From Actinomycetota bacterium (GTDB lineage Bacteria; Actinomycetota; Actinomycetes; Mycobacteriales; JACQDL01), in assembly GCA_046724155.1 (NCBI GenBank), contig JBKOWA010000243.1:1-30891 (forward strand): a DNA stretch of 30,891 bases. Reading direction: 5' to 3'. The notes below the pieces were generated by a model. It had not been told where the DNA came from, made no database searches, and worked only from the letters and a program-made list of their open reading frames with translations. Numbering within the stretch: the first letter of the stretch is position 1; each line of letters starts with the position of its first letter. This document shows, in pieces, positions 2,522 to 29,678 of this stretch. The position numbers and the translations under genes are program-made.

Positions 2522-2621
2522 GGTTCCCCTTCCCTCTGGCGCGACTGGTGCACCAGGCGGAAAGCGCGGTGAACTACCGGGGCACGTAGTCGGAATTCGG
2601 TCAAGACTAGCACGGGCGGCG

Positions 2622-2747
2622 CCCGGGCGGGGTAAGCAAAATACGTAGCAGCGGGGCGCGAAGTCAACGCAATGCGTCCCGGCGGATGAGCTTGTCGCGG
2701 ACGCGCATGGTGTCGGCGTACCCGTAGCGTCCCTTTCGGCGCGGCAG
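2622..2747. promoter_or_regulatory. Divergent promoter region element, duplicated (inverted) at 15461-15586
   Basis: On the - strand TTGACT-N18-TATTTT faces the sulfotransferase. The palindrome ACGCA-A-TGCGT (2667-2677) abuts the -35. TGAGCTTGTCG at 2687-2697. Confidence 0.6.
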
Positions 2748-12326: not shown

Positions 12327-12377
12327 TCGATCGTTTCACCCGGTGTTTTCGAGCGAATGGCTGGTGTTTTCGAGCGA
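12327..12377 (+). promoter_or_regulatory. Direct-repeat array upstream of the amidinotransferase
   Basis: GGTGTTTTCGAGCGA at 12342-12356 and 12363-12377. TCGA(G/T)CG cores start at 12327, 12349 and 12370. Confidence 0.5.
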
Positions 12378-12423
12378 CCGACTGGCGCCGTGCTGGCGGC
12401 GCCCGGCAGGGGAGGGAAACCCG

Positions 12424-13464
12424 ATGAGCCTGGTCGATGTGCACACGGAATGGGATCCGCTCGAGGAGGTCGTCGTCGGGACCATGGCAGGCGCGCGGGT
12501 GCCGATCGTGGAGCGGAGCCTGCTCGCCACCGAATACCCGGACATAGACGATCCGCAGCAGGTTCCGTCCGGCCCGTATCCCGGCCACGTGGTCGAGCAG
12601 ACCGAGGCCGAGCTCGCAGAGCTGGTGGACCTGCTCACCGGCCTCGGCGTGTCCGTGCGGCGGCCCGGCGGGCGCGACCACAAGTCGGTCGTGTCCACCC
12701 CGGACTGGAGCACGGACGGGTTCTACGACTACTGCCCCCGGGACGGGTTCCTCACGGTCGGCAGCTCGATCATCGAGACACCGATGGTGCTGCGGTCCCG
12801 GTTCCTCGAAGGGTTCGCCTACAAGGACCTGTTCCTGGAGTACTTCGAGAGCGGTGCGCGGTGGCTGTCGGCGCCCAAGCCTCAGCTGACCGACGACATG
12901 TACGAGCCGACCGCGCCGCCGGGACAGCGGCTGCGCGATCTGGAACCGGCCTTCGACGCGGCGAACGTGCTCAGGTTCGGTACGGATCTGCTCTACCAGG
13001 TCTCCGACAGCGGCAACATGCTCGGCGCGCGCTGGCTGCAGTCGGTGCTCGGTGCGCAGTACACCGTGCACCCGTGCGAGGGCCTGTACACGTCCACCCA
13101 CATCGACTCGACGATCGTGCCGCTGCGACCCGGGCTCGTGCTGGTGAACCCGGCCCGGGTCAATGATGACAACATGCCCGCGTTCCTGCGTGGCTGGGAC
13201 CGGGTTGTCTGCCCGGAGCTGGTGGACACCGGCTTCGTCGGTGACCACCCGAGGTCGTCGGTGTGGATCGGGATGAACTTCCTGGTGGTCGCGCCCGGAA
13301 AAGCCATTGTGGACAAACGGCAGTCGGAGCTCATCCGGGTGCTGGAGCACCACGGAGTGGAGGTGGTCCCGGCGCAGCTCACCCACTCCAGGACTCTCGG
13401 CGGTGGGTTCCACTGCGTGACGCTCGACGTGCGCCGCACGGGCGCACTTGCCACCTACCGGTGA
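12424..13464 (+). CDS. L-arginine-dependent amidinotransferase (StrB1/glycine amidinotransferase family)
   Basis: MSLVDVHTEWDPLEEVVVG, YDYCPRD, PAFDAANVLRFG, HIDST, and C-terminal GGGFHCVTLDVRR with catalytic Cys. GGGAGGG RBS. Confidence 0.92.
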   Translation: MSLVDVHTEWDPLEEVVVGTMAGARVPIVERSLLATEYPDIDDPQQVPSGPYPGHVVEQTEAELAELVDLLTGLGVSVRRPGGRDHKSVVSTPDWSTDGFYDYCPRDGFLTVGSSIIETPMVLRSRFLEGFAYKDLFLEYFESGARWLSAPKPQLTDDMYEPTAPPGQRLRDLEPAFDAANVLRFGTDLLYQVSDSGNMLGARWLQSVLGAQYTVHPCEGLYTSTHIDSTIVPLRPGLVLVNPARVNDDNMPAFLRGWDRVVCPELVDTGFVGDHPRSSVWIGMNFLVVAPGKAIVDKRQSELIRVLEHHGVEVVPAQLTHSRTLGGGFHCVTLDVRRTGALATYR

Positions 13465-14620: not shown

Positions 14621-15391
14621 TCAGTACCGGCTCTCCCGCTGGGCTGGCGGCCGCAGCCGCAGGCCGTGCATGCCGCCGTCCACGGCAAGCACCGTGCCCA
14701 CCGAAGCGCCCGACAGCGGGCTCGCCAGGTAGGCGATCGCGTTGGCCACCTCGTCGGCCGACACCAGACGCCCCATCGGCTGCCGCGCGTTGAGCGCGGC
14801 CCGTTCGGCCGCCGGATCCGCCGTCCGGTCGAGCAACCTGTCCACCCACGGCGTGTCCGCTGTACCAGGGGCGACGCAGTTGACCCGGATGCCCTCGCGG
14901 ACGTGGTCCGCCGCCATCGCCAGCGTCAGCGCGTACACCGCGCCCTTGCTGGCGGAGTACAGCACCCGCTGCTCCAGCCCGGCCCACGCGACGATCGAGC
15001 ACGTGTTGACGATCGCCGCGGCGGGTGAGCGCCGCAGGTGCGGCAACGCGTGCCGGGCGACCCTGACCATCCCGACCACGTTGACGTCCAGCACCCGCAG
15101 CCACTCGTCGTCGCTGTTCCCGGAGACATCCCCGACCGCGCTGATCCCGGCGTTGTTCACCACCACGTCCAGCCTGCCGAACCGCTCGACCACGGCGTCC
15201 ACGGCGGACCTGACCTGGGCGTCGTCGGTGACGTCGGCCTTGATGCCCATGATGCCGCCCGGGACGCCGTCCGGATCGAGATCGAGCGCGGCGACCTCGG
15301 CTCCCCTGCCGTGCAGCAGTTCCGCCGTGGCCAGGCCGATCCCCGACGCACCACCGGTGACGATCGCGACCAGTCCTTCGAAGTCACTCAC
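14621..15391 (-). CDS. Short-chain dehydrogenase/reductase
   Basis: VTGGASGIG, VVNNAG, YSASK, VNCVAPGT. GTG at 15391 follows a GGAGAG RBS. Confidence 0.92.
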   Translation of the reverse strand: MSDFEGLVAIVTGGASGIGLATAELLHGRGAEVAALDLDPDGVPGGIMGIKADVTDDAQVRSAVDAVVERFGRLDVVVNNAGISAVGDVSGNSDDEWLRVLDVNVVGMVRVARHALPHLRRSPAAAIVNTCSIVAWAGLEQRVLYSASKGAVYALTLAMAADHVREGIRVNCVAPGTADTPWVDRLLDRTADPAAERAALNARQPMGRLVSADEVANAIAYLASPLSGASVGTVLAVDGGMHGLRLRPPAQRESRY

Positions 15392-15460
15392 GAGTTCTCT
15401 CCCGTCCACTCCGGACCATCGTCCGGTTGCAGCATCGAGATCGCGCCGGCCGGCAGCGGT

Positions 15461-15586
15461 CTGCCGCGTCGCGAGGGACGTTACGGGTCCGCCGGCACCG
15501 TGCGCGTCCGCGACAAGCTCATCCCCGGGGACGCACTGCGTTGACCTTCCTCCCGGGTGGCTGCGTATTTCGCTTACCTGCCCGGG
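15461..15586 (+). repeat. Inverted, diverged copy of 2622-2747
   Basis: By-eye alignment gives 10 mismatches in the first 85 nt, an identical core TGCGCGTCCGCGACAAGCTCATCC, and retained ACGCA-N-TGCGT, TTGAC and CGTATTT.GCTTACC. Confidence 0.9.
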
Positions 15587-15595
15587 TTGCGCCCG

Positions 15596-15810
15596 ACTTC
15601 GACGACGGCTCGGTCGCGCGGGACCGCTGCGGGTCTCCGACTTTCTGGGCGGCGCCTGCATGGTTCGGCGAACTCAAGGCGTTTGAGAACCGGGTCATGC
15701 ACTATCCGCACCACGTGCAGCGGGGCGTGTCCGCGGTCATGCGGGCGCAGCGGGTGCCGGTCACCCGGCGTGCCGGCCTGGCCACCGTCCGGCTGCCCCG
15801 CAACATCGCG
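15596..15810 (+). repeat. Inverted copy of 27418-27632 (internal fragment of the aziU2-like gene)
   Basis: 215 bp with 7 substitutions and 2 single-base indels by eye. Both loci translate to FWAAPAWFGELKAFE..VMHYPHHVQRGVSAVM.AQRVPVTRRAGLA.VRLPRNIA. Confidence 0.95.
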
Positions 15811-15828
15811 GAAAGGGTGGACCACGCA

Positions 15829-17028
15829 ATGACTGACCGCTTGACGCCGGATGACCACATCGCCATCGCCGAGCGCTGGAGCGCGCACAACTACCACCCG
15901 TTGCCCGTGGTGCTCACTCATGGGGAGGGCGCCTGGCTGACCGATCTGAACGGCAGGCGCTACCTCGACTTCCTCGCCGGGTACTCCGCGCTCAACTTCG
16001 GCCACCGGCACCCGGACATCGTCGCCGCGGCCAAGGCACAGCTCGACCGGCTGACGCTGACCGGCCGCGCGTTCCACCACGACCAGTTCGGACTGTTCTG
16101 CCGTGAGCTGGCCGAGCTGACGGGCACCGACATGGTGCTGCCCGCCAACTCCGGCGCCGAGGCGGTCGAGTCGGCCCTGAAGATCGCCAGGAAGTGGGCC
16201 TACCAGGTCAAGGGCGTGCCGGACGGCGCCGCCGAGATCGTGGTCGCCGGCGAGAACTTCCACGGCCGCACGACGACCATCGTCTCGTTCTCCACCGACC
16301 CGGACGCCCGCAACGGGTTCGGCCCGTTCACCCCGGGCTTCACGGTGGTGCCGTACGGCGACATCGACGCGCTGCGCTCGGCGGTCACCGAGAACTCGGC
16401 AGCGGTGCTGCTGGAGCCGATCCAGGGCGAGGCGGGTGTGGTCGTCCCGCCGAAGGGGTACCTCGCCGAGGTCCGTCAGCTGTGCGACGACAGCTTCACA
16501 CTGTTCATCGCCGACGAGGTCCAGTCCGGACTGGCCCGCACCGGCGCGACGCTGGCGCTGGACCACGAAGGCGTCCGCGCGGACCTGTACGCCCTGGGCA
16601 AGGCGCTGGGTGGCGGGATCATGCCGGTGTCCGCGGTGGTCGGCCGGGCCGACGTCCTCGGCGTGCTCAAGCCCGGCGAGCACGGCTCGACCTTCGGCGG
16701 CAACCCGGTGGCGTGCGCGGTCGGCCGCGCGGTGGTGCGGTTGCTGGCGACCGGGGAGTTCCAGGAACGGTCCCGCGAACTCGGCGCGTACGTGCACTCC
16801 CGGCTCGGCGAACTGGAGGGCGTCGCCGAGGTCCGCGGCCGCGGCCTGTGGGCCAGCGTGCAGATCGCCGAGGGCAGCCGGACCGGACGCGAGGTGTCCG
16901 AGGCACTGGTCGAGCGCGGCGTGCTGTGCAAGGAATACCATTCGAGCCTCCGGGTGGCGCCGCCGCTGGTGATCACCCGTGCGGAGATCGACTTCGGCAT
17001 CGACGCGCTCGCCGCGGTTCTCGCGTGA
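15829..17028 (+). CDS. rocD: Ornithine--oxo-acid aminotransferase (class III PLP)
   Basis: AHNYHPLPVV, YLDFLAGYSALNFGHRHP, NFHGRT, EPIQGEAG, DEVQSGLARTG, LGKALGGG, HGSTFGGNP. Confidence 0.9.
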   Translation: MTDRLTPDDHIAIAERWSAHNYHPLPVVLTHGEGAWLTDLNGRRYLDFLAGYSALNFGHRHPDIVAAAKAQLDRLTLTGRAFHHDQFGLFCRELAELTGTDMVLPANSGAEAVESALKIARKWAYQVKGVPDGAAEIVVAGENFHGRTTTIVSFSTDPDARNGFGPFTPGFTVVPYGDIDALRSAVTENSAAVLLEPIQGEAGVVVPPKGYLAEVRQLCDDSFTLFIADEVQSGLARTGATLALDHEGVRADLYALGKALGGGIMPVSAVVGRADVLGVLKPGEHGSTFGGNPVACAVGRAVVRLLATGEFQERSRELGAYVHSRLGELEGVAEVRGRGLWASVQIAEGSRTGREVSEALVERGVLCKEYHSSLRVAPPLVITRAEIDFGIDALAAVLA

Positions 17029-17067
17029 CCCGCCCGGTGCGCCCGGACGAGGAAAACCGGGAATGGG

Positions 17068-18318
17068 TTGAGGACGGTGTGGCGGGGGCCGAAGGTGCGG
17101 CTTGACCAGTACCGGAAGGTGGTCGCCGTCCGGGGCTTCCCCCTGGTCATGGCGCTCGGGCTGCTCGCCAAGCTGCCGATCGTGGCGATCCCGATCATCC
17201 TGACCCTGCACGTGGCGACCGGGCTCGATCGCGGGTACGGGCAGGCGGGCCTGGTGATCGGGGCGTGGACCGCGGGGGTCACCGTCAGTGCGCCCGTCCT
17301 GGGCCGGTTCATGCAGCGGTACGGCCTTCGGCCGGTGCTGGCGGTCGTCACCCTGGCCCAGGGGGTGTTCTGGGGCCTGGCGCCGCAGCTGTCGTTCCCG
17401 GTCTTCGCGGCGGGTGCACTCGCCTCAGGGCTGCTGCTGGTGTCGGGCTCCACCGTGGTCCGGCTGGCCATCGGCGGGCTGGTCCCGCAGGAACATCGGC
17501 ACACGGCCTTCGCGGTGGACTCGGTGATCACCGAAGTCTCGATCATGATCGGCCCCGCCCTGGCCGTTCTGGTCACCTCTCAGACCTCCACGAAGGGTGC
17601 GCTGACCAGTCTCTGTGTCGCCCTGGTCATCAGCTGCGGCGCCCTGGCGGTGTTCAATCCCAGGATCGAAGGGGCGCCCGCGGCCGGCGGTACGAACGCT
17701 CCAGCCGCCGCAGCGCCGCGGAACTGGCTGACCGTCCGGTTGGTCGCCGTTCTCGCCTGCTCGCTGTCGGCCGGAGCGATCGTCACGGGGTACGAGGTCG
17801 TCGTCGTCGGCACGCTGCGGTCCACGGGCCAGCTCGGGTGGACGGGGCTGGTGCTCTTCGGATGCGGGGTGTGCTCGCTGGTCGGCGGGCTGGTGTACGG
17901 GGCTCTTCCGCGCGGCCTTCCGGTGCCGTTGATGATCGGTCTGCTGGCTTTGGCCACGATGCCCCTGGGGCTGGTGGGGCCGCGCTGGTGGGTGCTCGCC
18001 CTGGCGATCGTCCCGGCCGCGGCACTGGTCGCGCCGGGGTTCGCCGCGACCGCGAACGCTGTCAGTCAAGAGGCCGGGTACGGCAGCCAGGCGGTCGTCA
18101 TGAGCGTCTATGGATCCGCGCTCAGCGCCGGCAGCTCGATCGGCGCGCCACTGGCGGGAGCGGCCTTCGAGTCGGGTGGCGCCGAGGCCGGTTTCGCGTC
18201 GGTGGGCGGACTGGGCGTGATCGTCGCGGTCTCGGCCTGGACCGTGCTGGGGCGCCGTTCGGAACGGGTGCGCGAGGACTACGTCCCAGCTACCCAAGGT
18301 ATGCCGGTTGAAAGGTAA
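17068..18318 (+). CDS. MFS transporter (probable exporter)
   Basis: About 12 hydrophobic segments, motif-A-like GRFMQRYGLRPVL, two-halved architecture. Start may be GTG 17095. Confidence 0.88.
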   Translation: MRTVWRGPKVRLDQYRKVVAVRGFPLVMALGLLAKLPIVAIPIILTLHVATGLDRGYGQAGLVIGAWTAGVTVSAPVLGRFMQRYGLRPVLAVVTLAQGVFWGLAPQLSFPVFAAGALASGLLLVSGSTVVRLAIGGLVPQEHRHTAFAVDSVITEVSIMIGPALAVLVTSQTSTKGALTSLCVALVISCGALAVFNPRIEGAPAAGGTNAPAAAAPRNWLTVRLVAVLACSLSAGAIVTGYEVVVVGTLRSTGQLGWTGLVLFGCGVCSLVGGLVYGALPRGLPVPLMIGLLALATMPLGLVGPRWWVLALAIVPAAALVAPGFAATANAVSQEAGYGSQAVVMSVYGSALSAGSSIGAPLAGAAFESGGAEAGFASVGGLGVIVAVSAWTVLGRRSERVREDYVPATQGMPVER

Positions 18319-18321
18319 GGA

Positions 18322-18411
18322 ATGCCTGCTCCGCAGAATGTCGGCGTGGTCGGCTCGTATGCGTCGATGCGGTTGCTCGCGGAAGAGCTGAAGGCGGGAG
18401 TCGCGGCATGA
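18322..18411 (+). CDS. 29-aa small ORF or gene remnant
   Basis: MPAPQNVGVVGSYASMRLLAEELKAGVAA*. AAGG just upstream; the stop overlaps the ATG of the next gene (ATGA). Confidence 0.3.
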   Translation: MPAPQNVGVVGSYASMRLLAEELKAGVAA

Positions 18412-19658
18412 CGATCTTGGAACTCGACGGCGCCGAACATGTCGTCATCGTCAACCGGTGGGCGGAGCGCTACGCGGACTTCTCGCGGTACGCCGACCAT
18501 CGGGCACATCGGGTCACCTATGTGAGCACAGCGGTGGGGCTGTCCGCCATCCCCGCCGAGGCCACCGAGGTGGTCACGGTGAAGGCCACCGACGACCTGG
18601 CGGAAGTGACCGCCGCGGTGGACGGCCTGGCGCGCCGTCACGGGGCTCCGGACCGTATTGTGGCGCTGAAGGAGGACGATCTCCTGGTCGGTGCCGCCCT
18701 GCGGGAGAAGTGGGAGGTGCCGGGCCCCCGGGTGGACCAGCTGCTGCCGTTCCGGGACAAGTTCCTGATGGCGACGCGGGTGGCCGAGGCAGGGGTGGCG
18801 GTGCCGGATTTCGCCCTGGTGCCCGACGCGCAGGCCGTGCGGGGGTTCGCCGAGCGCGCCGGCTGGCCGGTCATCGTCAAACCGACGGTCGGCAGTTCCA
18901 GCGCCGGCGTGGTCCGGCTCGACGGACCGGGTGACCTGAGCGGGCTCTCCTTCGACGAGGGCCCCCTGCTGGCACAGGTGTTCAACCCGCACCAGATCTA
19001 CCACGTGGACGGGGTCTTCACCGGAGAACGACTGTTGGTCGTGCGCGCCTCCCGGTACCTGAACAACTGCCTGGGATTCCGTGGCGGTGGGACTCTGGGC
19101 TCGGTGGAGGAGAGCGACCCGGAAATCACGGGGATTATCGCCGAGTTCACGCTGCGGGCCATGCGTGCACTGTCGGACCGGGCCCTGGTCTTTCATCTCG
19201 AAATGTTCCTGGACGTGGATACGGGTTCCTGTGCCTTCCTGGAGGTCGGCGCCCGGGCGGGCGGCGCGGAGATCCCGCTGCTCTGGCGGGAGGTCCACGG
19301 GCACGACCTGATGGAAACCGCGTTCCGGATTCAGATGGGCCTGCGGATCCGTGCGGAGGCCCCACGGATCGCGGACGAGGTCGGCGGCTGGCTGCTCGTT
19401 CCGGCGCCGGTGAACCGTCCCTGCCGGATCACCGAGATCACACCGATGGTGGGCCGGCAGCCGGGCCCTTACGCCGAGGTGTTGCTGAGGGTGGGAGAGG
19501 TCCTGCCCGATGCCGACTCGTACTACGAGCACGTCGGCGGCCGCTTCCGGTTCCGGGGGGAGTCCAGCCAGGCCGTGGAGGCGGCGATCCGCACGATCGC
19601 GGCCGATTTCCGGGTGAGCGCGGAACCCGTGAGCCTGGTGCGGCGAACACCGGAGTGA
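18408..19658 (+). CDS. ATP-grasp ligase 1 (L-amino-acid ligase-like)
   Basis: FRDKFLM, GWPVIVKPTVGSSSAGV, YHVDG, FHLEMF, FLEVGARAGG. Confidence 0.88.
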   Translation: MTILELDGAEHVVIVNRWAERYADFSRYADHRAHRVTYVSTAVGLSAIPAEATEVVTVKATDDLAEVTAAVDGLARRHGAPDRIVALKEDDLLVGAALREKWEVPGPRVDQLLPFRDKFLMATRVAEAGVAVPDFALVPDAQAVRGFAERAGWPVIVKPTVGSSSAGVVRLDGPGDLSGLSFDEGPLLAQVFNPHQIYHVDGVFTGERLLVVRASRYLNNCLGFRGGGTLGSVEESDPEITGIIAEFTLRAMRALSDRALVFHLEMFLDVDTGSCAFLEVGARAGGAEIPLLWREVHGHDLMETAFRIQMGLRIRAEAPRIADEVGGWLLVPAPVNRPCRITEITPMVGRQPGPYAEVLLRVGEVLPDADSYYEHVGGRFRFRGESSQAVEAAIRTIAADFRVSAEPVSLVRRTPE

Positions 19659-19729
19659 AGAGGATGGGCATGGAATACGAGACCACGCCGGCGACGCGCG
19701 GTACCTCGGGCGTCAATGGAGCGCCAGAA

Positions 19730-21025
19730 TCACCTGGCAGGGAACGTCTTTCCTTGTCGAGGGTTGTCGTCGTAGAGGTAGTCGCGTTCGATTTGCCGCA
19801 GCTTCTCGTAGTCGGCGCGAATCTCTTCCGGATCATCGGAGATGAGAAATATCCACCCCGGCTGGGTCGCGACATCGATCGTTCGCGGAAGCGGGTGCCC
19901 TTCCGGATGCGCCATGAGGGTATGGGCGTAGGACGGTAGCGCGCGGATGGCGGCCATCGTCTCGTGGGACGGGACCACGCCGTGGTCCCTCGGGTTGATC
20001 AGAGACACGTCACGTGGGTGCTGCAGCAGCTGGTACACGGTGGTTGGCAGGCGGTTGAACTCGTCCGGGTCCACCACGGCCAGCGTGAAGAGCTCTATCT
20101 GGTTGGTGCCGAAACAGCGCGTGTTGATCTCCGGAACCTGGCCACCGCCGAAGCGTGCGGCACACTCGACGAGCACCGGCCCGCCGGCGGTCAGCATGAC
20201 CTCGGTGTGGGCGGCCCAGTTGCGGATCTCCAGGGCGTCGAGCACCTGGTGAGTGTAGGACTCCAGCTTTTTGGCGACCGGGTCGTCCGGCGCCAGCGGC
20301 TCGTCGTAGTCGTAGATGATGTTGCCGCCGGCGAGCCGAATCTTGTAGTACCGCCAGATCTCGACGGTGTGATGCCTGCCGTCACGACTGACCGTGTTGA
20401 CGAAGTACTCTTCCCCGGCCAGGAACTCCTGCGCGAGCACCACCGTATTGGGCTTCCCGTGACGGTCGGTACTGGTCATGATCTTTTCGTGGACGGCGCG
20501 AACCTGCTCCGGAGACGAACATGCCGCGACGTTGTCCGTGCCGGAGCTGGCGACCGGTTTCAGGACGACCGGGTAGCCTGCGGTCGTCTCGGCCCACGCG
20601 ATGATGTCGTCGGCATCGGATGCGACTGTGGTGGCCGCGTGTGCCAGTCCGGCATCGCGCAGTGCCAGGACCATGTCATATTTGTTGCGTCGGGCCGTCG
20701 GTCGGCTCATCCCGTTGCCGGGAGTGTCGAGCTCGGCGGAGAGCTGGTCGGCCAGCTCGACGCCCGACTCCCCGGCGGCGATCACGTAGCTGACCCCACG
20801 CGCACGCAGCGCGGCCGCCGTGGCCACGACGTCACCGTCATGGCGGACATTGTCGACGAAACCATCGGGGATCGGCAGCCGAGCCAGGTGAACGTCGGGG
20901 CTCGGCGACTGGACGTGCACACACTCCACGTCGTGCCGGTGCAGCGCGGGCAGCAGGTGGCGCCCCATCGAGTACGCGTCGACCAACGCCGCTCGTGTCG
21001 TCTGCGCGCGAGAACTGGTTGGCAT
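19730..21025 (-). CDS. ATP-grasp ligase 2 (NikS/L-amino-acid ligase-like)
   Basis: LVDAYSMG, RRNKYDM, YPVVLKPVASSGTDNV, QEFLAGEEYFVN, AHTEVML, LVECAARFGGG. Confidence 0.88.
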   Translation of the reverse strand: MPTSSRAQTTRAALVDAYSMGRHLLPALHRHDVECVHVQSPSPDVHLARLPIPDGFVDNVRHDGDVVATAAALRARGVSYVIAAGESGVELADQLSAELDTPGNGMSRPTARRNKYDMVLALRDAGLAHAATTVASDADDIIAWAETTAGYPVVLKPVASSGTDNVAACSSPEQVRAVHEKIMTSTDRHGKPNTVVLAQEFLAGEEYFVNTVSRDGRHHTVEIWRYYKIRLAGGNIIYDYDEPLAPDDPVAKKLESYTHQVLDALEIRNWAAHTEVMLTAGGPVLVECAARFGGGQVPEINTRCFGTNQIELFTLAVVDPDEFNRLPTTVYQLLQHPRDVSLINPRDHGVVPSHETMAAIRALPSYAHTLMAHPEGHPLPRTIDVATQPGWIFLISDDPEEIRADYEKLRQIERDYLYDDNPRQGKTFPAR

Positions 21026-21077
21026 CGTCAGCTCCTTCCTCAGTGAGTCGGGATAGTCCTCGGACGGGAGGTTCCGG

Positions 21078-21923
21078 TTATGCCGAATTCGTTGTCACCG
21101 AATTCGTTGTCACCGTGGTGCCGGACCCGGCCAGCGCTCGGCTGACCGGGCTGGGTACCCGCCCGTCCGCTATGCGTACCGACGCCACTCCGCCGGCCAG
21201 TGCCTCACGTGCCGCAACGAGTTTGAGTGCCATGCCACCGCCGGCGAACCGGCCCGGCGCGCCGGTCGCCGGCACCTCGTAGGTACTCAGCACGCTGGTG
21301 TCGTCGTCGGGATCGGCGAGTACCCCTGGTGCGCCGGTCAGCAGCACCAGCTGGTCAGCACCGAGTGCCGCCGCGAGCGCTGCCGCGACGCGGTCGGCGT
21401 CGACGTTCACCGGGTGGTCGTGCTCGTCGATCGCGGGCGGTGAGACCACCGGCACGAAGCCGGACCGCAGCAGGGTTTCCGCCAGTTCGGTGCGCACCTC
21501 GCTGAGCCGGCCGCTGAGGTTGTCCCGGACCAGTGTCGTCCGACCATCCACAACGGACCGGACGGCGGACTTGCGGCGGGCGCGCAGCATGCCGCCGTCC
21601 AGGCCGGTGAGGCCGACCGCGGGCACCCCGAGCCGGGACAGCTCCGCGACGATGCTTGGTTTGACCCCACCGGCCAGCGCGAGGATGACCACCTCCAGCG
21701 TCGCCGGGTCGGTGTACCTGGTGGACACCTTGTCCGGGGCGACGAGGGTGCGTTGCGGGACACCGAGTCTCCCGGCCAGTCGGGCGATCTCCCCAGAACC
21801 TCCGTGCACCAGGAGAACCGACTGCCCGGCACGGACGAGCCCGGCGACGTCGGCGCAGATGCCCGCGGCGTCGACGGCCGGGTTGCCGCCGCACTTGACG
21901 ACTGTCAGCGGTCTGGCGGTCAC
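21078..21923 (-). CDS. lysZ: [LysW]-glutamate/aminoadipate kinase (LysZ/ArgB family)
   Basis: VVKCGG, LVHGGSGEI, RYTD, GLTGLDG, NVDADRVAA, GGMALKL. GGAGA RBS before GTG 21923. Confidence 0.9.
   Translation of the reverse strand: MTARPLTVVKCGGNPAVDAAGICADVAGLVRAGQSVLLVHGGSGEIARLAGRLGVPQRTLVAPDKVSTRYTDPATLEVVILALAGGVKPSIVAELSRLGVPAVGLTGLDGGMLRARRKSAVRSVVDGRTTLVRDNLSGRLSEVRTELAETLLRSGFVPVVSPPAIDEHDHPVNVDADRVAAALAAALGADQLVLLTGAPGVLADPDDDTSVLSTYEVPATGAPGRFAGGGMALKLVAAREALAGGVASVRIADGRVPSPVSRALAGSGTTVTTNSVTTNSA
21083..21115. repeat. 15-bp tandem duplication at the lysZ 3' end
   Basis: CCGAATTCGTTGTCA x2 + CCG, giving C-terminal VTTNS-VTTNS. Confidence 0.9.
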
Positions 21924-21946
21924 GGTGTCTCCAGTTCGCCGGGGCC

Positions 21947-22972
21947 TCAGACGGGATGCAGGCCGGGGAAGGACAGGCCGAGTGCTTCCGGCCAGCCCAT
22001 GCGGATGTTCAGGCACTGGACCGCATTGCCCGCGCCGCCCTTCATGAGGTTGTCCAGTGCCGCGATGGTCACCAGCCGTCCGGCCTCCTCGTCGACGGCG
22101 TACCCGACATCGCAGAAGTTCGATCCCAGCAGGATCTTCGGCTCCGGGTAACGGAAAATGCCGCGCTGGTGGGCGACCAGACGGACGAACGGCTCGTTCT
22201 GGTACTGCTCGCGGAACGCCCTGCGCACCGCCGACTTGTTCACACCGGGGCGCAGCGTGGCGTGACAGACCGTCTGCACACCTCGTACCGCCTCGACTCC
22301 GGTCGCGGTCATGGTGGCCGGAATGCCGAGGTGCCGGGAGATCTCCGCCTCGTGCCGGTGCCCGGTCGGTGCGAACACCCGCATCGCCCCGCTGCGCTCG
22401 GCATGCAGGTTCGCCTCGCCCGCGGTGGCACCGGAACCGCTGGACCCGGTGCGCGCGTCGAGCCGGGCCATCGGCTCGACCAGGCCCCGGGCCACGAGTG
22501 GGTACAGCGCGAGCACGCCCGCCACCGCCATGCAGCCGGGCACGCTGACCAGGTCGGCGCTGCGCAGGCTCTCCCTGTGCAGTTCGGGTATCCCGGGGAC
22601 GAAGTCGCCGAGCAGGTGCGGCGCGGCGTGCGCGTTCCCGTAGTAGCGCTGGTAGACCTCGGTGTCGTCCAGCCGGAAGTCCCCGGTGAGGTCGATGACC
22701 TGCTTGGCCGGTCCGATCCAGCGGTCGATCTGTGTCATGGCGGCGCGGTGCGGCGTGGCCAGGAACACCGTGTCGCACTCATCCACCTCATCGGCCGAAC
22801 AGAACAGCAGGTCGGTGGCGGACCGCAGGTTCGGATGGACACCGTCGACCCGCTTGCCGGGGAACCGGGACGACACCGCGGCCGTCACCTCGACCTCGGG
22901 GTGGCCGATGAGTAGTCGCAGCAGCTCACCGCCGATGTATCCGGCCGCACCGACCACCGCGACGCGGATCAC
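21947..22972 (-). CDS. lysY: [LysW]-glutamyl/aminoadipyl-phosphate reductase (LysY/ArgC family)
   Basis: VAVVGAAGYIGGELLRLL, FLATPH, IDLTGDFRL, VPGCMA, SSGSG, LDNLMKGGAGNAVQCLN. Alternative start at 22990. Confidence 0.92.
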   Translation of the reverse strand: MIRVAVVGAAGYIGGELLRLLIGHPEVEVTAAVSSRFPGKRVDGVHPNLRSATDLLFCSADEVDECDTVFLATPHRAAMTQIDRWIGPAKQVIDLTGDFRLDDTEVYQRYYGNAHAAPHLLGDFVPGIPELHRESLRSADLVSVPGCMAVAGVLALYPLVARGLVEPMARLDARTGSSGSGATAGEANLHAERSGAMRVFAPTGHRHEAEISRHLGIPATMTATGVEAVRGVQTVCHATLRPGVNKSAVRRAFREQYQNEPFVRLVAHQRGIFRYPEPKILLGSNFCDVGYAVDEEAGRLVTIAALDNLMKGGAGNAVQCLNIRMGWPEALGLSFPGLHPV

Positions 22973-23012
22973 GACCAGGACCCGGTGCACGCCGCACGCC
23001 TGCGCACGACGA

Positions 23013-23186
23013 CTACTCTCCCCAGTCCTCTTCGACCTCGGGCGCGAGGGCGAGCACCACCGGGCTCAACGCCACGATCTCCAGTTCGTTTCGGCAGCCC
23101 GCACACTCGACGATCTCGTTGAGCCGCACCGAGTGGCCGATCTGCACCTCGTCCTCGCACTCCGGGCAGGTCTGCGCTGTGGTCAT
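23013..23186 (-). CDS. lysW: Amino-group carrier protein LysW/AmCP, 57 aa
   Basis: CPEC...CAGC zinc ribbon and the invariant C-terminal EDWGE. GAAAGGA RBS. Confidence 0.96.
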   Translation of the reverse strand: MTTAQTCPECEDEVQIGHSVRLNEIVECAGCRNELEIVALSPVVLALAPEVEEDWGE

Positions 23187-24151
23187 GTGGTGGTGTCCTT
23201 TCGGTCGGTCGTCCGGGAGCGGGCAGCCGTGTCGAGGGCGGTGCGGACCGTCCGCACGACCCGCTCCGCGGTGAGGTCGTAGTGCGTGACGAGGTGTTCC
23301 TGGCTGCCGACCGCGTCGACGAACTGATCCGGCATGCCCAGCCTCAACACCCTCGTGGGCGCTGCCTCCGCCAGTGCTTCGGCCACCGCGCCGCCGAGGC
23401 CGCCGTTGCGCCAGTGCTCTTCGACAGTCACGACGAGCGTGGCCGGTCGCGCCGCGGCCACCAGTGTCTCCGTGTCGAGCGGCCGCAGCGTGTGCAGGTT
23501 CAGCACGGTGGTTTCGATGCCTTGCCCGGCAAGGACATCCGCTGCGGCGAGGCAGGCGAGCACCGGGTACGGGCCGCAGCACGCGAGCACCACGTCGCCG
23601 CCCTGCCGCAGCGTCTGTGCCTGCCCGATGACCGGGGGAGGGGATGCGGGCAGCGGCGGTGACGGTTTGCGGCCGAGCCGGACGTAGAGCGGTCCGGCCA
23701 GGCTCAGGCTCTGCTCGACGAACGCCTCCGTGGCGGCGGCGTCGGCAGGCACCACCACCGTCATTCCCGGCAGCACCCGTAGCACGGCGAGGTCTTCCAG
23801 GGCCTGGTGAGTCGGACCGAGGTGGCCCGCGGCGAGCCCGCCGTGGGTGGCCATGATGCGGACCGGCAACCGGTTGTAGGCGATGTCGATCTTGACGGCT
23901 TCCAGCGCGCGGGATGCGGCGAAGGCGGCCATCGTGTTGACGAACGGAATCCGCCCGCACGCGGCCAGCCCGGCTGCTATGCCCATCAGGTTGTGCTCGG
24001 CGATGCCGAGGTTGAGGTACTGCTCGCCGGCCGCTGTGGCGTGCTCCGCGCTGAACAGGCCGGTGTCGGTGTCCAGGCAGATCAGGTCGGGATGCCGGTT
24101 CAGCAAGGGAAGCAGACAGTCCCGGTAGGCCTCTCGGGTCGAGCGGCTCAT
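23183..24151 (-). CDS. Transketolase C-terminal subunit (pyrimidine-binding + C domain)
   Basis: NLGIAEHNLMGIAAGLA, HLGPTHQALED, PLYVRLGR, RPLD, VTVEEH, GGLG. 4-nt overlaps with both neighbours. Confidence 0.92.
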   Translation of the reverse strand: MSRSTREAYRDCLLPLLNRHPDLICLDTDTGLFSAEHATAAGEQYLNLGIAEHNLMGIAAGLAACGRIPFVNTMAAFAASRALEAVKIDIAYNRLPVRIMATHGGLAAGHLGPTHQALEDLAVLRVLPGMTVVVPADAAATEAFVEQSLSLAGPLYVRLGRKPSPPLPASPPPVIGQAQTLRQGGDVVLACCGPYPVLACLAAADVLAGQGIETTVLNLHTLRPLDTETLVAAARPATLVVTVEEHWRNGGLGGAVAEALAEAAPTRVLRLGMPDQFVDAVGSQEHLVTHYDLTAERVVRTVRTALDTAARSRTTDRKDTTT

Positions 24152-24990
24152 CGGGCGGGATCCGTGGTCCGCAGCGCGCCGATCGCCCGTGCGTGGTTGC
24201 GCTTCGACAGCGTCACGTAGTGGCTGGCTGCCCGGCCGGCGAGGAACGGGAGCCCGTGGCCCTTGACCGTGCGGGCGATCAGCACGCTCGGCCGGCCCGG
24301 CTCCCACGGCGCGGCGGCGAGGTGGTCTGCCAGCTGGGCTGCGTCGTGGCCGTCCACGTCGCGGACCGCCCAGCCGAAACCGCGCCAGCGGTCGGCCAGT
24401 GGCTCCATCGGCGCGACTCGCTCGGTGGAACCGGTCAGCTGCAGCCCGTTGCGGTCCACCACGGCGACCAGCCGGTCCAGCCGCAGCGACGCGGCCGCGA
24501 TCGCCGCCTCCCACACCGAACCTTCCTGGAGCTCGCCGTCGCCGAGCAGCACGAAGCTGCGCGAGTCACGGCCGGCGTACCGGGTGGCCAGCGCGAACCC
24601 GCAGGCCAGCGCGAGACCGTGGCCGAGGGACCCGGTCGGCAGCTCCACGCCGGGCACCGCGCGTACCGGATGGCCCATCAGCCTGCTGCCGGGCCGGCCG
24701 TATCCGGCGAGTTCCTCGACCGGAAGGAAACCCCGTTCGGCCAGCGTCGCGTACAGGGCAACGGCGGCGTGGCCCTTGCTGAGCAGGAAACGGTCGCGGG
24801 CCGGGTCGTCGGGCCGCTGCGGGTCCACGTTCAGCACCGAGAAGTACAACGCGGTGAGCACCTCGACACAGGAGAACGCGCCGCCGAGATGGCCGCCTTC
24901 CGGTCCCGCACACATGTCGACGACGTGCGAGCGGATGCGTGCGGAGACCGACTCCAGCGTGTCCCGCGCCGGGACCGGGGCGGCGGTCAT
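24148..24990 (-). CDS. Transketolase N-terminal (ThDP-binding) subunit
   Basis: [59 protein letters not shown]. Confidence 0.92.
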
Positions 24991-26282
24991 GACGCTGCCG
25001 CCGCAAGGGTGGCCACCATGTCGGTGTTGGCCCACACCTTCTCGAAGGCGTCGGCGTAGAGGCGGAGCAGGTCGCCCGACCCTGGATGGAGGTGACGTTT
25101 CTGGAGGGTCAGCGAGTCGGCGATGACCGCGCGGGCCACCGGGTAGCCCGCACCCGCCACCGGTCCGGGTGCGCCGGTCACGGACCAGGGGTAGCCCGCG
25201 CCGAAGCCGATCCGGTCGACGAACACCTTCTGGTCGGGCAGCGGCATGAGCTGGTACTGCGACATCGGCACGCCCTCGGCGCGCAGCAGCCGCCGCAGGG
25301 CTGAGCGCAGGGCCTCCGGCCGCACCGCGTCCAGACCGAACGCGGCCGGGTCGAACCGGAACCGCAGGATGTGCCAGGCGTGGGTGGTGTGCGGGCGCGC
25401 GGCCGGCACGCGCAGGCCGGGCAGCGCCGCGAGCCGCGCGAGGAAGTCGCCGACGTTGCGTTGCCGCGCGCGTTCGTAGTCGTCGAACCGGGTGAGCTGC
25501 GCGTCGGCGAACGCGGCCTGGATGGCGTTCATCTTGTGGTTCCAGCCGAGGCCGTAGGACACGTAGTCGCGCTCGCGGCCGCTCTCGATCACCTCGCCGA
25601 ACTGCCTGCCCCTGCGCACCGACCCGGCCAGCTCGGCGTCGCGGGTCACGAGCAGGCCGCCTTCACCGCAGGTGGGGATGTTCTTGGTGACCTGGAGGCT
25701 GAACGCACCCGCGTCGCCGATCCCACCGACCGGCCGCCCGCGGTGGGTCGCGCCCGGGGCCTGCGCGGCGTCCTCGACCACGGCGAGGCCGTGCCTGCCC
25801 GCGATGTCGGTGAGCCGGTCCATGTCGGCGGGTGCGCCGTGCAGGTGCACCGGGATGATCGCCGCGGTCCTGGCGGTGATCCGGCGCTCCACGTCGTCCG
25901 GGTCGAGGTCGAAGGTGACCGGGTCGACGTCGGCGAACACGGGAACGGCCATCTGGTGCAGGGGCGCGAGCCCGGTGGCGATGAAGCTGAGCGCGGGCAC
26001 GATCACCTCGTCTCCCGGCCCGACACCGAGCGCGGCCAACGCGAGGGACAGTGCGGCGGTGCCGGTGGACACCGCGACGCAGTGGTCGAAGCCGAACCGT
26101 TGCGCCCAGTGCTCCTCGAGGGCGGAAACCGGGTTCGCACCGTCCGAGTTGGACACAAGTCTGGCGCTGTCGAGTGCGTCGATGACGGCCTTGCGGTCTT
26201 CGTCCTCGACCAGCGGCCAGTCCACGCGGCGCCGGTCCTTCGGCACGGCTGCGGTGCCGCCGAACGCTGCCAGCCTGCTCAT
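24987..26282 (-). CDS. DegT/DnrJ/EryC1/StrS-family PLP aminotransferase
   Basis: [49 protein letters not shown] (Schiff-base Lys), GEGG. Confidence 0.92.
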
Positions 26283-26321
26283 CGCTGTCCTCTCGACATG
26301 GTCACGGTGGCCGAACCACCG

Positions 26322-27374
26322 TCACAGTCGCGCCGCTGCCGCGTCCACGGCGTCGACCGCACCCGCGTACCTGCCGCGCAGCACGGTGGCGTGGTGCGCG
26401 ATGTCGGCTGAGACCGCACGGGGATCGCCGAGACCGTGCGCGCCGGTGATCCGCAGCCCGGTCCACGCGTGCGCGACAGACTCGACCGCCCGTCCGGCCC
26501 CGGCAAGCGCCGGATCGCCCCATTCCCGGCCGCAGCGGCGCAGAAGCTCACCGTGCAGTGCGGCCTGCGCCTGCATGCCCCAGCCGAACGAGTACAGCTC
26601 GCGTAGCGCGGTGGCGTCCCCGGCACGGCACCGGTCGAGGAGCTCCCCGGCGAACTCGTCGAATCCGGCGAGACCGGTGCGGGCCGAGGTGGCCGTGGTG
26701 AAGGCGGCGACGTCGGTGCGCAGGAAACCGCCGAGCAGTTCGGGGGTCAGCGGCGGGGGCGGGGCGTCGAGCCGGACGTCGAGACCGCGCCTGCCGATCT
26801 GCGAGTCACTGAAGAACGCGTCCTGGACGTCGGTGGGGTTGGTCGAACCCCAGCTGCGCAGGAACGCCTCGATCGGGACGGCACCGCGGAACGCGGGCGG
26901 CATCGCGTCCGAGACGTACACCAGCCCGCGGACCTCGTCCAGGCCGTAGACCACCACGAGGTGCGCGGCGTGCACGTCGCCGTACGCGGGCCGGAACGGC
27001 AGGTAGAAGTTGTCCACCGCGGCGATGACCAGCCGGTCGTCGGCCAACGTCCCGCGCACCTCCCGCCAGGGGTCGTCCTCATCGGCGGGCTGCCACCAGC
27101 GCGAGTGCAGTTCGTGGTGCGGTGCCAGGGCGGCACCGAGGTCAGCGCCGCCGGACTCCTCGGCAGGGCACGGGTAGTAGAACTCCTCGGACCTGACATC
27201 GCCGGGCAGGTGCAGGAACCGCCAGCCCGCTCCGAGCACGGTCAGCGGGTCGGCGCCGGCCCGTGCCAGCAGCGAGCCGAACGTGGCCTGAAGGCAGCTG
27301 ATCAGGTCGCGGTACCACCACTCTGGCTCCGGCCCGGTGACCAGGTACGTCCGTGCCGTCACGTCACTGGTCAT
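26322..27374 (-). CDS. BtrH-like (papain-fold) protein, probable AziU3/Vzb11-type aziridine-forming subunit
   Basis: SCLQ near the N-terminus, VDNFYLPFRPAYGDVHAAHLVVVYGLD, VYVSD. Overlaps the upstream gene stop by 11 nt. The AziU3 assignment rests on fold family and context. Confidence 0.72.
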   Translation of the reverse strand: MTSDVTARTYLVTGPEPEWWYRDLISCLQATFGSLLARAGADPLTVLGAGWRFLHLPGDVRSEEFYYPCPAEESGGADLGAALAPHHELHSRWWQPADEDDPWREVRGTLADDRLVIAAVDNFYLPFRPAYGDVHAAHLVVVYGLDEVRGLVYVSDAMPPAFRGAVPIEAFLRSWGSTNPTDVQDAFFSDSQIGRRGLDVRLDAPPPPLTPELLGGFLRTDVAAFTTATSARTGLAGFDEFAGELLDRCRAGDATALRELYSFGWGMQAQAALHGELLRRCGREWGDPALAGAGRAVESVAHAWTGLRITGAHGLGDPRAVSADIAHHATVLRGRYAGAVDAVDAAAARL

Positions 27375-27972
27375 GCTCGACCTCCGCCCGCTGCAGGGTG
27401 ACCGCGAAGACATGCATCGCGATGTTGCGGGGCAGCCGGACGCCGGCCAGGCCGGCACGCCGGGTGACCGGCACCCGCTGCGCCCACATGACCGCGGACA
27501 CGCCCCGCTGCACGTGGTGCGGATAGTGCATGACCGGGGTCTCAAACGCCTTGAGTTCGCCGAACCATGCCGGCGCCGCCCAGAAGTCGGAGACCCGCAG
27601 CGGTTCCGCGTCGACCGAGCCGTCGTCGAAGTTCAGCTCGACGGTGTCCTCGCTACGCCGTTCCGCCGCCGCCAGCACGTGCACCCAGTCGTAACGACCC
27701 GCCGGCACGGTGAGGAACTGTCCGGCGCAGCGGACGTTGTCCGGCCCGTCGCTGACCGGAGGGAACAGGAAGGGAACGCCGGCCACGTGGACGAGGCTTT
27801 CGCCCGCGGGCAGGTACTCGGCGGCAAACGAGTTCCTCCACACGTTGAACTCTCCCGCTTTGGTCTCCGTCGCCGCGGTGATGGCCGTGTTGTTGCGATG
27901 GCCGGAGATGTCGACCGGGTCGTACAGTCGGGTCATGGCGGAGGGCACCAGGATGTTCGTCAAGTGATCCAC
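27364..27972 (-). CDS. Beta-sandwich-like hypothetical protein, probable AziU2/Vzb10-type partner
   Basis: Clean 202-aa ORF with high-GC codon usage (GEFNVWRNSF, DNVRCAGQ, AAAERRSED, MHYPHHVQ), coupled to the BtrH-like gene. Alternative start ATG 27936. Function from context only. Confidence 0.6.
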   Translation of the reverse strand: MDHLTNILVPSAMTRLYDPVDISGHRNNTAITAATETKAGEFNVWRNSFAAEYLPAGESLVHVAGVPFLFPPVSDGPDNVRCAGQFLTVPAGRYDWVHVLAAAERRSEDTVELNFDDGSVDAEPLRVSDFWAAPAWFGELKAFETPVMHYPHHVQRGVSAVMWAQRVPVTRRAGLAGVRLPRNIAMHVFAVTLQRAEVEHDQ

Positions 27973-28200
27973 TCCAGAGGTTGGTGGAGGATGTCGGTCG
28001 CTCTGAACTAATTCGATGGAACGCCGCCCCGACAGCCGCTGTCAAGGAAATCCGGCCATCAGTTTATCGTTAATTCTTAAGGCGCGACCTTATTTTTTCA
28101 GGTGCCACCTTAACGAATGTGACGGCGCCGTTGAATTTACGGCGGAGCCGGCTGTGTGGAGTCTAGAAAACGCCGTGACCGGTCATCCCTGAAGGCGGGA
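27973..28200. promoter_or_regulatory. AT-rich divergent promoter region for the right-arm operon
   Basis: AT-rich runs (AGTTTATCGTTAATTCTTAA, TTATTTTTT). Palindromes GACAGC-C-GCTGTC (28031-28043) and TAAGG-cgcga-CCTTA (28078-28092). Confidence 0.5.
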
Positions 28201-28450
28201 CTGGTCCGGGAATGGTGCGGTCTGACGGCCGCGCCCCGGTCCGCGGCTGCGCCGCCACCGCCGGTGCCCGCCGTAGGTGGCCGCCAGCACCACCGCCGGG
28301 CGCGCACCGGCCCGCACACCAGCTCGACCAGCCGGGATGGCCGGCTACGAAAACGCTTGAGGACTACCTGAGGCCCCGCCCCGAAATACCGGCGTCGGCA
28401 CGGCTGTTATGCGTTCGGCAGAGTCAACCGAGGCGGTAGGAGGGATGCGC

Positions 28451-28744: not shown

Positions 28745-28896
28745 CCGGAATACCCGACCCGGTGGCGGACCCCAGGTGCCGAATGTCACCTGCTGGACGG
28801 CCGGGAACGGCGACCGACTTTGCGGCTGCGCGCGGACAGAGTGCAACCCGGTGAACGTCCCCCGCACCCGCGCGGCATTACCGGAAACGCCTGTAA

Positions 28897-28923
28897 CCAC
28901 CCCCGCACCGGGGACGGGGGTGG
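28897..28923. terminator. Stem-loop between convergent xre and vapC genes
   Basis: CCACCCCCG-N9-CGGGGGTGG, a perfect 9-bp stem. Confidence 0.55.
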
Positions 28924-29669: not shown

Positions 29670-29678
29670 GGCGTAGCT

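What the first reader, a model, noticed from the sequence alone, without database searches (positions are those of the whole stretch)
15596..15828. A 215-bp piece of the aziU2-like gene pasted in frame in front of rocD
The fragment is about 96% identical by eye to 27418-27632, much closer than the neighbouring promoter copy is to its source, which implies two events of different age. Downstream of the second indel it runs without a stop into rocD. An ATG at 15697 would give a 44-residue extension (MHYPHHVQ...RNIAERVDHA). It could be a rearrangement scar, a nascent fusion or a new 5' leader. As an inverted repeat 11.6 kb from its source, it could also mediate inversion of 15811-27417 and truncate the aziU2-like gene, acting as a switch.
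Basis: partly seen in the sequence, partly recalled or inferred. Interest (0 to 1): 0.68.

Follow-up and report, generated by a model that had tools for sequence, protein, structure and literature searches.

The report
Decaying aziU2 gene scrap before rocD
A 215-base piece of an aziridine-forming gene really does sit in front of the rocD aminotransferase gene, but it looks like a decaying leftover of gene-cluster reshuffling inside the rocD leader, not a new protein fusion or a genetic switch.

Summary
Window 15596-15810 (+) is a reverse-complement copy of 27418-27632, an internal part (codons 102-173 of 190) of the full-length AziU2 homologue. Identity is 96.7%, with two compensating 1-bp indels, and the copy is in frame with rocD.

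RocD starts at ATG 15829, behind a Shine-Dalgarno stretch that is conserved in related clusters, and the fragment stops exactly where that native stretch begins. Six of the nine differences fall on columns invariant in 51 orthologues, and the full-length gene keeps the conserved letter each time, so the copy is decaying.

The neighbouring "promoter copy" (15461-15595) is not a copy of the window's own sulfotransferase promoter. It is an old member of a promoter-cassette family found at operon heads across this ficellomycin/vazabitide-type cluster family.

Relatives give context. Solwaraspora carries SDR, a divergent cassette, then aziU2-aziU3-rocD-MFS in the same slot. One metagenome contig (L106) shows a similarly collapsed operon with gene scraps in front of rocD.

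No recombinase lies on the contig, no RNA family or unusual fold was found, and none of the listed homologues has the extension. The verdict is a rearrangement scar carried in the rocD leader. A programmed switch, a functional fusion and an assembly artefact are each unlikely. Interest is low to moderate.

The parts
15461..15595 (+). P' promoter cassette between the SDR gene (divergent) and rocD. It carries TTGACC, a 19-nt spacer and TATTTC, with the palindrome ACGCA-N-TGCGT overlapping the -35. It belongs to a cassette family found at operon heads in related clusters.
   Evidence: Alignments; motif searches; cassette tree and identities. Function as a promoter is inferred, because the simple scan did not call it; it did call the paralogous cassette at 2667-2638.
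15596..15810 (+). aziU2' pseudogene fragment: codons 102 (partial) to 173 of the 190-codon aziU2. It is 96.7% identical to the source, has two compensating 1-bp indels, and is in frame with rocD.
15811..15828 (+). Native rocD ribosome-binding stretch (GAAAGGG plus 11 nt), conserved upstream of rocD in related clusters. The right junction of the fragment lies at 15810/15811.
15829..17028 (+). rocD, the cluster-type ornithine-oxo-acid transaminase (399 aa) and first gene of the rocD-MFS-ATP-grasp operon.
   Evidence: Pfam Aminotran_3 at 1.4e-115; TIGR01885 at 459 bits against a cut-off of 378; homologues of 395-422 aa
27418..27632 (-). Source segment inside the intact aziU2 gene; the other arm of the inverted repeat.
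27364..27936 (-). Full-length aziU2 homologue at the head of the aziU2-aziU3-DegT-transketolase-LysY-LysZ operon.
   Evidence: PDB AziU2 7WUW at E=4.6e-53; synteny
2613..2747 (-). Paralogous P cassette between the sulfotransferase gene and lysX (TTGACT, 18-nt spacer, TATTTT).
14621..15394 (-). SDR gene transcribed divergently from P'. Its 42-nt 5' region is conserved with Solwaraspora and with two metagenome contigs.

Best explanation
The fragment is a non-coding relic. It is a piece of the lineage's own aziU2 gene, left or captured between an operon-head promoter cassette (P') and the native ribosome-binding site of rocD when this cluster was rearranged. Both junctions were made by illegitimate joining with 0-4 nt of microhomology.

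It is now carried as about 215 extra nucleotides in the 5' leader of the rocD-MFS-ATP-grasp transcript and is drifting neutrally. RocD is made from its ancestral start at 15829.

Two origins remain open. The one I favour slightly is that a second aziU2-containing operon copy once sat here, as in Solwaraspora, and collapsed by two deletions. The alternative is that a single complex event copied 215 bases of aziU2 as filler into a deletion junction.

Shown: the repeat, the junction positions, the decay pattern, the conserved start, and the uniqueness of the fragment among relatives. Inferred: transcription from P', lack of function, and the order of events.
For: (1) The copy is closest to the window's own aziU2 (96.7%) and at most 90.2% identical to any of 51 orthologues, so it arose within this lineage.

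(2) Six of nine differences, including both frameshifting indels, hit columns invariant in 51 orthologues, and the full-length gene always keeps the conserved letter. Only one change is clearly synonymous. This is the pattern of relaxed selection on the copy alone.

(3) The fragment ends at 15810, and 15811-15828 is the conserved rocD ribosome-binding stretch seen in Streptomyces, Solwaraspora and metagenome relatives.

(4) None of about 20 rocD upstream regions in related clusters carries such a fragment.

(5) Solwaraspora (L046 plus L092) has SDR, a divergent P'-like cassette, then aziU2-aziU3-rocD-MFS-ATP-grasp. An intact aziU2 therefore occupies the same slot in the same orientation.

(6) Contig L106 shows a collapsed operon, P-sulfotransferase(1-204)-LysW-LysY(51 nt)-rocD. 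This is a direct precedent for deletion scars in front of rocD.

(7) The family is highly mosaic. L012 has two cassettes and two rocD copies, and L099, L101, L104, L105 and L107 all differ in layout.

(8) The leader has no Rfam match and folds no better than shuffles (z=+0.8).

(9) A sister contig with a 99.5%-identical RocD has an SDR-rocD spacer of 401 nt, against 434 nt here and about 219 nt without the fragment.
Against: There are no expression data, so a regulatory role of the longer leader cannot be excluded. The fragment is in frame with rocD and its two indels compensate; by my rough estimate this is about a 1-in-6 coincidence, not a negligible one.

Only one relative (Solwaraspora) has aziU2 in this slot. 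The closest rocD relatives have cysD-cysN upstream instead, which fits the filler-capture variant as well as the two-deletion variant. The right junction is supported only by the MAG contig itself and, indirectly, by the spacer length of the sister contig.
Confidence: 0.75

Rival explanations
1. Nascent fusion: RocD is translated from an upstream start (ATG 15697 or another) and carries an AziU2-derived N-terminal extension, for instance to dock onto AziU3.
For: The frame is open from 15361 to rocD. The fragment keeps the aziU2 frame, and its two indels restore the frame.
Against: The native Shine-Dalgarno stretch and ATG at 15829 are conserved, and no comparable stretch precedes 15697. The 120 best homologues listed are 363-419 aa. 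The one 685-aa cluster member is a read-through call on a collapsed operon. Residues invariant in AziU2 orthologues are replaced in the copy (W to R, G to T). Open frames of 405-906 aa upstream of rocD are common in relatives.
Confidence: 0.06
2. Invertible switch: homologous recombination between the two arms flips 15811-27417. That would toggle between an intact aziU2 operon and a state with truncated aziU2 fused to rocD.
For: The arms are 215 bp, 96.7% identical, inverted and 11.6 kb apart. One X1 contig has the copy-type left part and source-type letters from 15689 onward, as a crossover product would.
Against: No serine or tyrosine recombinase lies on the contig. The longest perfect identity block is 49 bp. 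The flipped state would leave no intact aziU2. The hybrid contig changes type within the 31-nt identical block 15658-15688, which equals the word length I recall for Logan assemblies. At about 2x depth a graph artefact is at least as likely. Rare RecA-type inversion may occur as an accident, not as a device.
Confidence: 0.05
3. Co-opted leader: the inserted 215 nt has acquired a regulatory role for rocD-MFS expression, through spacing from P', RNA stability, or shared recognition with the aziU2 mRNA.
For: It lies between the putative transcription start and the ribosome-binding site. It has the same sense as aziU2 mRNA, so any factor binding that stretch would see both transcripts (inference).
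Against: There is no Rfam hit and no fold stability above shuffles. The substitutions look random and include indels. No such fragment was found in the other related clusters examined.
Confidence: 0.08
4. Assembly artefact: the MAG contig is chimeric and the fragment is not adjacent to rocD in any real genome.
For: The genome is a 65%-complete MAG of 617 contigs from soil at low depth. No listed read piece bridges 15810/15811.
Against: Neither junction lies at a sequence repeated elsewhere, so repeat-driven misjoining cannot create them. An X1 contig spans the left junction and reproduces both indels. A separately assembled sister contig has an SDR-rocD spacer of 401 nt, too long for a fragment-free version.
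Confidence: 0.05

Closest known systems
Gene-fragment scars (pseudogene remnants) left by rearrangement of actinomycete biosynthetic gene clusters
   Same: It is a partial copy of a cluster gene with frameshifts and with substitutions at conserved sites. It lies at a junction between operon modules and is joined with little or no microhomology. A parallel collapsed operon exists in L106.
   Different: It is unusually tidy: in frame with the downstream gene, in the sense orientation, and exactly abutting an intact promoter cassette on one side and an intact ribosome-binding site on the other.
AziU2 of the AziU3/AziU2 aziridine-forming complex (PDB 7WUW/7WUX; azinomycin, ficellomycin and vazabitide pathways)
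   Same: The source gene is a clear AziU2 homologue, translationally overlapped with an AziU3 homologue, in a cluster that also holds a sulfotransferase, LysX/Y/Z-type genes and transketolase genes. Pathway background: PMC9570651.
   Different: The fragment covers only codons 102-173, is frameshifted over 9 codons, lacks the last 17 codons and has no aziU3 partner. It cannot encode AziU2.
Invertons and phase-variable DNA inversion switches
   Same: A pair of inverted repeats brackets a DNA segment.
   Different: Known switches use short repeats with a dedicated site-specific recombinase, and they flip a promoter or alternative gene ends. Here no recombinase is present, the arms are a decaying gene copy, and the flipped state would break an essential pathway gene.
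Reused promoter cassettes (regulon promoters) within one gene cluster
   Same: P' shares the -35, the palindrome and the -10 region with cassettes at other operon heads in this and related clusters. At least 34 elements were found, and about 10 loci hold a second copy.
   Different: This concerns the neighbour of the finding, not the fragment. No binding regulator has been shown.

Membership tests
Functional AziU2 gene | Full-length open reading frame (about 190-230 aa) alignable over most of AziU2 | tested here: not met
   The fragment covers codons 102-173 only, and two indels shift 9 codons. The full-length gene at 27364-27936 does meet this feature.
Functional AziU2 gene | Conservation of positions invariant among orthologues | tested here: not met
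   Six of nine differences hit columns invariant in 51 orthologues.
Functional AziU2 gene | Adjacent, translationally coupled aziU3 | tested here: not met
   No aziU3 remnant follows the fragment; rocD follows 18 nt later.
Programmed DNA inversion switch | Inverted repeats flanking the invertible segment | tested here: met
   Arms of 215 bp at 96.7% identity with 11.6 kb between them.
Programmed DNA inversion switch | Site-specific recombinase encoded nearby | tested here: not met
   The PF00239 and PF00589 matches in the genome lie on other contigs (C139, C35, C602), none on C14. Pfam scans of the window's genes show no recombinase.
Programmed DNA inversion switch | Both orientations present in the population | tested here: inconclusive
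   One hybrid Logan contig in X1; it cannot be told apart from a word-length artefact at about 2x depth.
N-terminally extended or fused RocD | Upstream start codon with a ribosome-binding site, and homologues that share the extension | tested here: not met
   No Shine-Dalgarno-like stretch precedes 15697. The conserved stretch and ATG are at 15829. The 120 best homologues listed are 363-419 aa, and the sister protein was called at 399 aa.
Ornithine-oxo-acid transaminase (TIGR01885), for the downstream gene | Score above the curated cut-off of the equivalog model | tested here: met
   459.3 bits against a cut-off of 378.4. The substrate in this pathway was not tested.
P-family operon-head promoter cassette | Shared -35 TTGAC, ACGCA-N-TGCGT palindrome, GCGACAAGCTCATCC box and TATTT -10 region in the same order | tested here: met
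   Promoter activity itself cannot be tested with these tools.

The most novel reading that the evidence does not exclude
The two aziU2 arms are a working recombination substrate. Occasional inversion of 15811-27417 would swap which operon the P' cassette drives: rocD-MFS-ATP-grasp in one state, and aziU3-DegT through LysZ in the other. It would also disable aziU2, giving a population-level on/off state for warhead synthesis. The X1 hybrid contig would then be a real recombinant.
Probability: 0.05. Interest if true: 0.6.

Novelty: new member of a known kind. Interest (0 to 1): 0.25.

Why it matters
The fragment itself is an ordinary scar. Its value is as a dated footprint of how this ficellomycin/vazabitide-type cluster family is rebuilt.

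Operon modules (aziU2-aziU3, the DADH core, rocD-MFS-ATP-grasp) are re-headed by a reusable promoter cassette, and leftover gene pieces mark the joins. Together with Solwaraspora's alternative layout and the collapsed operon in L106, this gives a concrete set of intermediates for studying module shuffling.

It is also a warning for automated annotation. A gene caller may extend RocD or call a spurious fusion, as happened with the 685-aa product on L106.

Tried and rejected
- An exact search for the right junction in JGI metagenome contigs gave 0 hits. This is uninformative, because a search for the conserved SDR leader also failed to return the sister contig.
- The two contigs found with the SDR leader (L102, L103) diverge from the window 26 nt upstream of the SDR start and have no P'.
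- The Rfam search and RNA folding of the leader found nothing.
- The simple sigma-70 scan does not call P', although it calls the paralogous P.
- I considered a single conservative inversion as the origin. I rejected it because it would split aziU2 rather than leave one intact copy plus a 215-bp piece, and because three or four novel junctions are needed.
- I considered gene conversion keeping an ancient second copy similar. It cannot be excluded, but the differences are spread evenly along the fragment and there is no conversion patch.
- DNA of the sister contig (JGI sample 3300041966) and of the contig carrying P0007 was not available.

Full report
**1. What is in the sequence**

The window is the whole of contig C14 of a 65%-complete metagenome-assembled genome (2.76 Mb, 617 contigs).

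Window 15596-15810 on the plus strand matches the reverse complement of 27418-27632. The repeat finder gives 168 nt at 96%. The gapped alignment extends the match to 215 nt, with one base missing after 15616 and one extra T at 15642. In the whole genome the match has E=7.7e-95 and there is no third copy.

The source lies inside the gene at 27364-27936 (-). Its product matches AziU2 of PDB 7WUW/7WUX at E=4.6e-53. The overlapping downstream gene matches AziU3 at E=5.8e-74.

The fragment corresponds to codons 102 (second base) to 173 of 190. It enters in the rocD reading frame, leaves that frame for 9 codons between the two indels, and returns to it. The frame is therefore open from 15361 into rocD.

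**2. The surroundings**

The window holds an amino-group-carrier-protein type cluster for an aziridine or azabicycle amino acid:
- sulfotransferase (1790-2521, -)
- LysX-like ligase, M20 peptidase, a C-A-T NRPS, a thioesterase and two acyl-CoA dehydrogenase-like genes
- a LuxR-type regulator
- an arginase-family gene
- SDR (14621-15394, -)
- rocD (15829-17028), an MFS exporter and two ATP-grasp genes
- LysZ, LysY, a split transketolase, a DegT aminotransferase, AziU3 and AziU2

The chemistry is that reviewed for azinomycin and vazabitide: DADH built on a carrier protein, then sulfation, then aziridine closure (PMC9570651).

rocD passes the ornithine-oxo-acid transaminase equivalog model. It is a regular member of this cluster family, not a recruited housekeeping gene. 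In each of five related genomes a cluster-linked copy is 82-90% identical and a second copy is 63-76% identical. The homologue in Streptomyces ficellus is 83% identical.

**3. Where RocD starts**

In related clusters the 18-21 nt before the rocD start read GAAAGG(G)TGA.C..GCC-ATG. This holds for seven Streptomyces loci, Solwaraspora and metagenome contig L104. The window has the same stretch at 15811-15828, and the aziU2-like sequence stops at 15810. The fragment therefore abuts an intact native ribosome-binding site.

Several further points argue against an extended RocD:
- No comparable stretch precedes the ATG at 15697.
- The 120 best RocD homologues listed are 363-419 aa.
- A 99.5%-identical sister protein was called at 399 aa.
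- Open frames of 405-906 aa upstream of rocD occur in relatives as well, so an open frame here carries little weight.
- From base composition I estimate roughly a one-in-four chance of no stop over 78 random codons. In-frame placement is a one-in-three event, and compensation of two single-base indels a one-in-two event. These figures are my own rough arithmetic, not a tool result.

**4. The fragment is decaying**

I aligned the 215 nt with 51 orthologous aziU2 segments. Nine positions differ between the copy and the source. At six of them, including both indels, all 51 orthologues agree with the full-length gene. At the other three the site is variable. Only one change is clearly synonymous. 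The others replace residues, for example W to R and G to T at invariant columns.

The copy is 96.7% identical to the window's own gene and at most 90.2% identical to any other. The two were therefore essentially identical when the copy stopped being constrained, and almost all later change is on the copy. That is the signature of a recent within-lineage pseudogene, not of a sequence kept for a coding function.

**5. The "promoter copy" is not a copy of the window's own promoter**

Segment 15461-15595 shares several features with the sulfotransferase/lysX intergenic cassette (2613-2747, -): a -35 TTGAC, the palindrome ACGCA-N-TGCGT, a GCGACAAGCTCATCC box and a TATTT -10 region.

I extracted at least 34 such cassettes from related loci. 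The window's own P is nearest to the cassette of contig L099 (88.9%) and of L065 (85.1%). P' is about 80-81% identical to cassettes of several genera and to the window's own P alike, and it branches apart from P. About ten loci hold a second cassette at another operon head: before DegT in L099, and before an ATP-grasp-rocD pair in L012.

P' is thus an old member of a promoter family. Its 19-nt spacer and TATTTC match the family consensus. Promoter activity remains inferred.

**6. Comparative layouts**

Of 80 related loci, about 55 close ones share one long operon, the canonical layout: P-sulfotransferase-aziU2-aziU3-DegT-transketolase-LysW-LysY-LysZ-(cysC/D/N)-rocD and onward.

The window differs in three ways:
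- The sulfotransferase and aziU2 are 25 kb apart. Homology to the canonical intergenic region stops at 1752 and at 27968.
- rocD is on the opposite strand from aziU2.
- cysDN are absent.

Solwaraspora sp. WMMB335 (L046 and L092) has the layout most like the window's left half. It runs lysX to ACAD2, then the 373-aa gene and SDR reversed, then a P'-like cassette, then aziU2-aziU3-rocD-MFS-ATP-grasp. Its sulfotransferase runs directly into DegT. An intact aziU2 therefore occupies, in the same orientation, the slot where the window has the fragment.

None of about 20 other rocD upstream regions has an aziU2 piece.

Contig L106 shows a collapsed canonical operon: P, sulfotransferase codons 1-204, LysW, 51 nt of LysY, then rocD. 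It was called as one 685-aa "protein". This proves that deletion scars in front of rocD occur in this family.

**7. How it most likely arose and what it does**

The left junction has 0-1 nt of microhomology and the right junction 2-4 nt (CGCG against CCGC(C/G) in relatives). Both are typical of illegitimate joining.

Two histories fit:
- (a) A second aziU2-containing operon copy stood behind P', as in Solwaraspora. With the intact copy elsewhere it became redundant and lost its 5' part and everything from codon 174 to the rocD ribosome-binding site in two deletions, as in L106.
- (b) One complex event removed whatever lay between P' and rocD, for example cysDN as in the nearest rocD relatives, and patched the gap with 215 nt templated from aziU2 11.6 kb away.

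I lean slightly to (a) because of the Solwaraspora slot and the L106 precedent, but I cannot separate the two. Either way the product is a scar.

If P' fires, the fragment is about 215 nt of sense-strand leader RNA. It has no Rfam match and folds no better than shuffled sequence (z=+0.8).

**8. The switch idea**

The arms are long enough for occasional RecA-type recombination; the longest perfect blocks are 49, 41 and 31 nt. But no recombinase gene is on the contig, and the flipped state would leave no intact aziU2.

In the Logan contigs of three soil runs the organism is at about 2-4x depth. One X1 contig (15552-15791) spans the left junction without gaps, which confirms both indels. From 15689 onward it shows the source-type letters. 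The change of type falls within the 31-nt identical block 15658-15688, which equals the word length I recall for those assemblies, so a graph artefact is at least as likely as a recombinant. No listed piece bridges 15810/15811.

**9. Is it an artefact?**

Neither junction lies at a repeat, so repeat-driven misassembly cannot create them. A separately assembled sister contig (JGI sample 3300041966) has SDR, RocD (99.5% identical), MFS and ATP-grasp with identical rocD-MFS and MFS-ATP-grasp spacers. Its SDR-rocD spacer is 401 nt, against 434 nt here and about 219 nt without the fragment. Its DNA could not be fetched.

**10. Verdict**

Fusion, switch, regulatory co-option and artefact each get about 5-8%. 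Interest is low to moderate. The worth of the finding lies in documenting module shuffling and promoter-cassette reuse in this cluster family.

Noticed in passing
window 1-1751 and 27969-30891: The sulfotransferase-aziU2 adjacency, present in about 55 related clusters, is broken here. Homology to the canonical intergenic region ends at 1752 and at 27968, so the contig's gene order is a cyclic permutation of the canonical cluster. Both outer flanks carry toxin-antitoxin-like genes (Gp49-like 1010-1411 plus HTH 1412-1723; HTH 28409-28744; PIN 28984-29466). They also share a 75-nt direct repeat, 1048-1122 / 29813-29887, at 83%.
   Followed up: partly
L106:1349-3406: ENA metagenome contig with a collapsed operon: P cassette, sulfotransferase codons 1-204, a LysW-like piece, 51 nt of LysY, then rocD. 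It was called as one 685-aa sulfotransferase-aminotransferase 'protein'.
   Followed up: partly
L012:600-3400 and L012:8840-18400: An Actinophytocola MAG holds two sister P cassettes and two rocD copies (81% and 88% identical to the window's). One cassette drives an ATP-grasp-rocD pair, so this is a partial cluster duplication.
   Followed up: partly
L107:7176-9969; L105:1-1952; L098:1-870: In canonical relatives, PAPS-supply genes (APS kinase, CysD-like, CysN-like) sit directly upstream of rocD. The window's cluster has none, although it keeps the sulfotransferase.
   Followed up: no
L101:5980-11700: Micromonospora sp. WMMD882 has an orphan set: an ATP-grasp gene, a homologue of the window's 373-aa gene (12343-13464), rocD, MFS and a broken second ATP-grasp. 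No core aziridine genes lie nearby, so this looks like a remnant cluster.
   Followed up: no
window 15552-15791 (run X1): A Logan contig with copy-type indels but source-type letters from 15689 onward, plus a private G>A at 15750. It is either a recombinant or conversion product, or a word-length assembly artefact.
   Followed up: partly
window 15557-15832: A 91-codon open frame in another frame of the leader ends with a TGA overlapping the rocD ATG (ATGA). The ATGA context is also found at rocD in relatives, so this is probably coincidental.
   Followed up: partly
window 2613-2747 and 15461-15595: The two P-family cassettes are themselves inverted repeats 12.7 kb apart (80-84% identical). Across the family, such cassettes sit at the boundaries of shuffled operon modules, so they may serve as recombination sites.
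   Followed up: no
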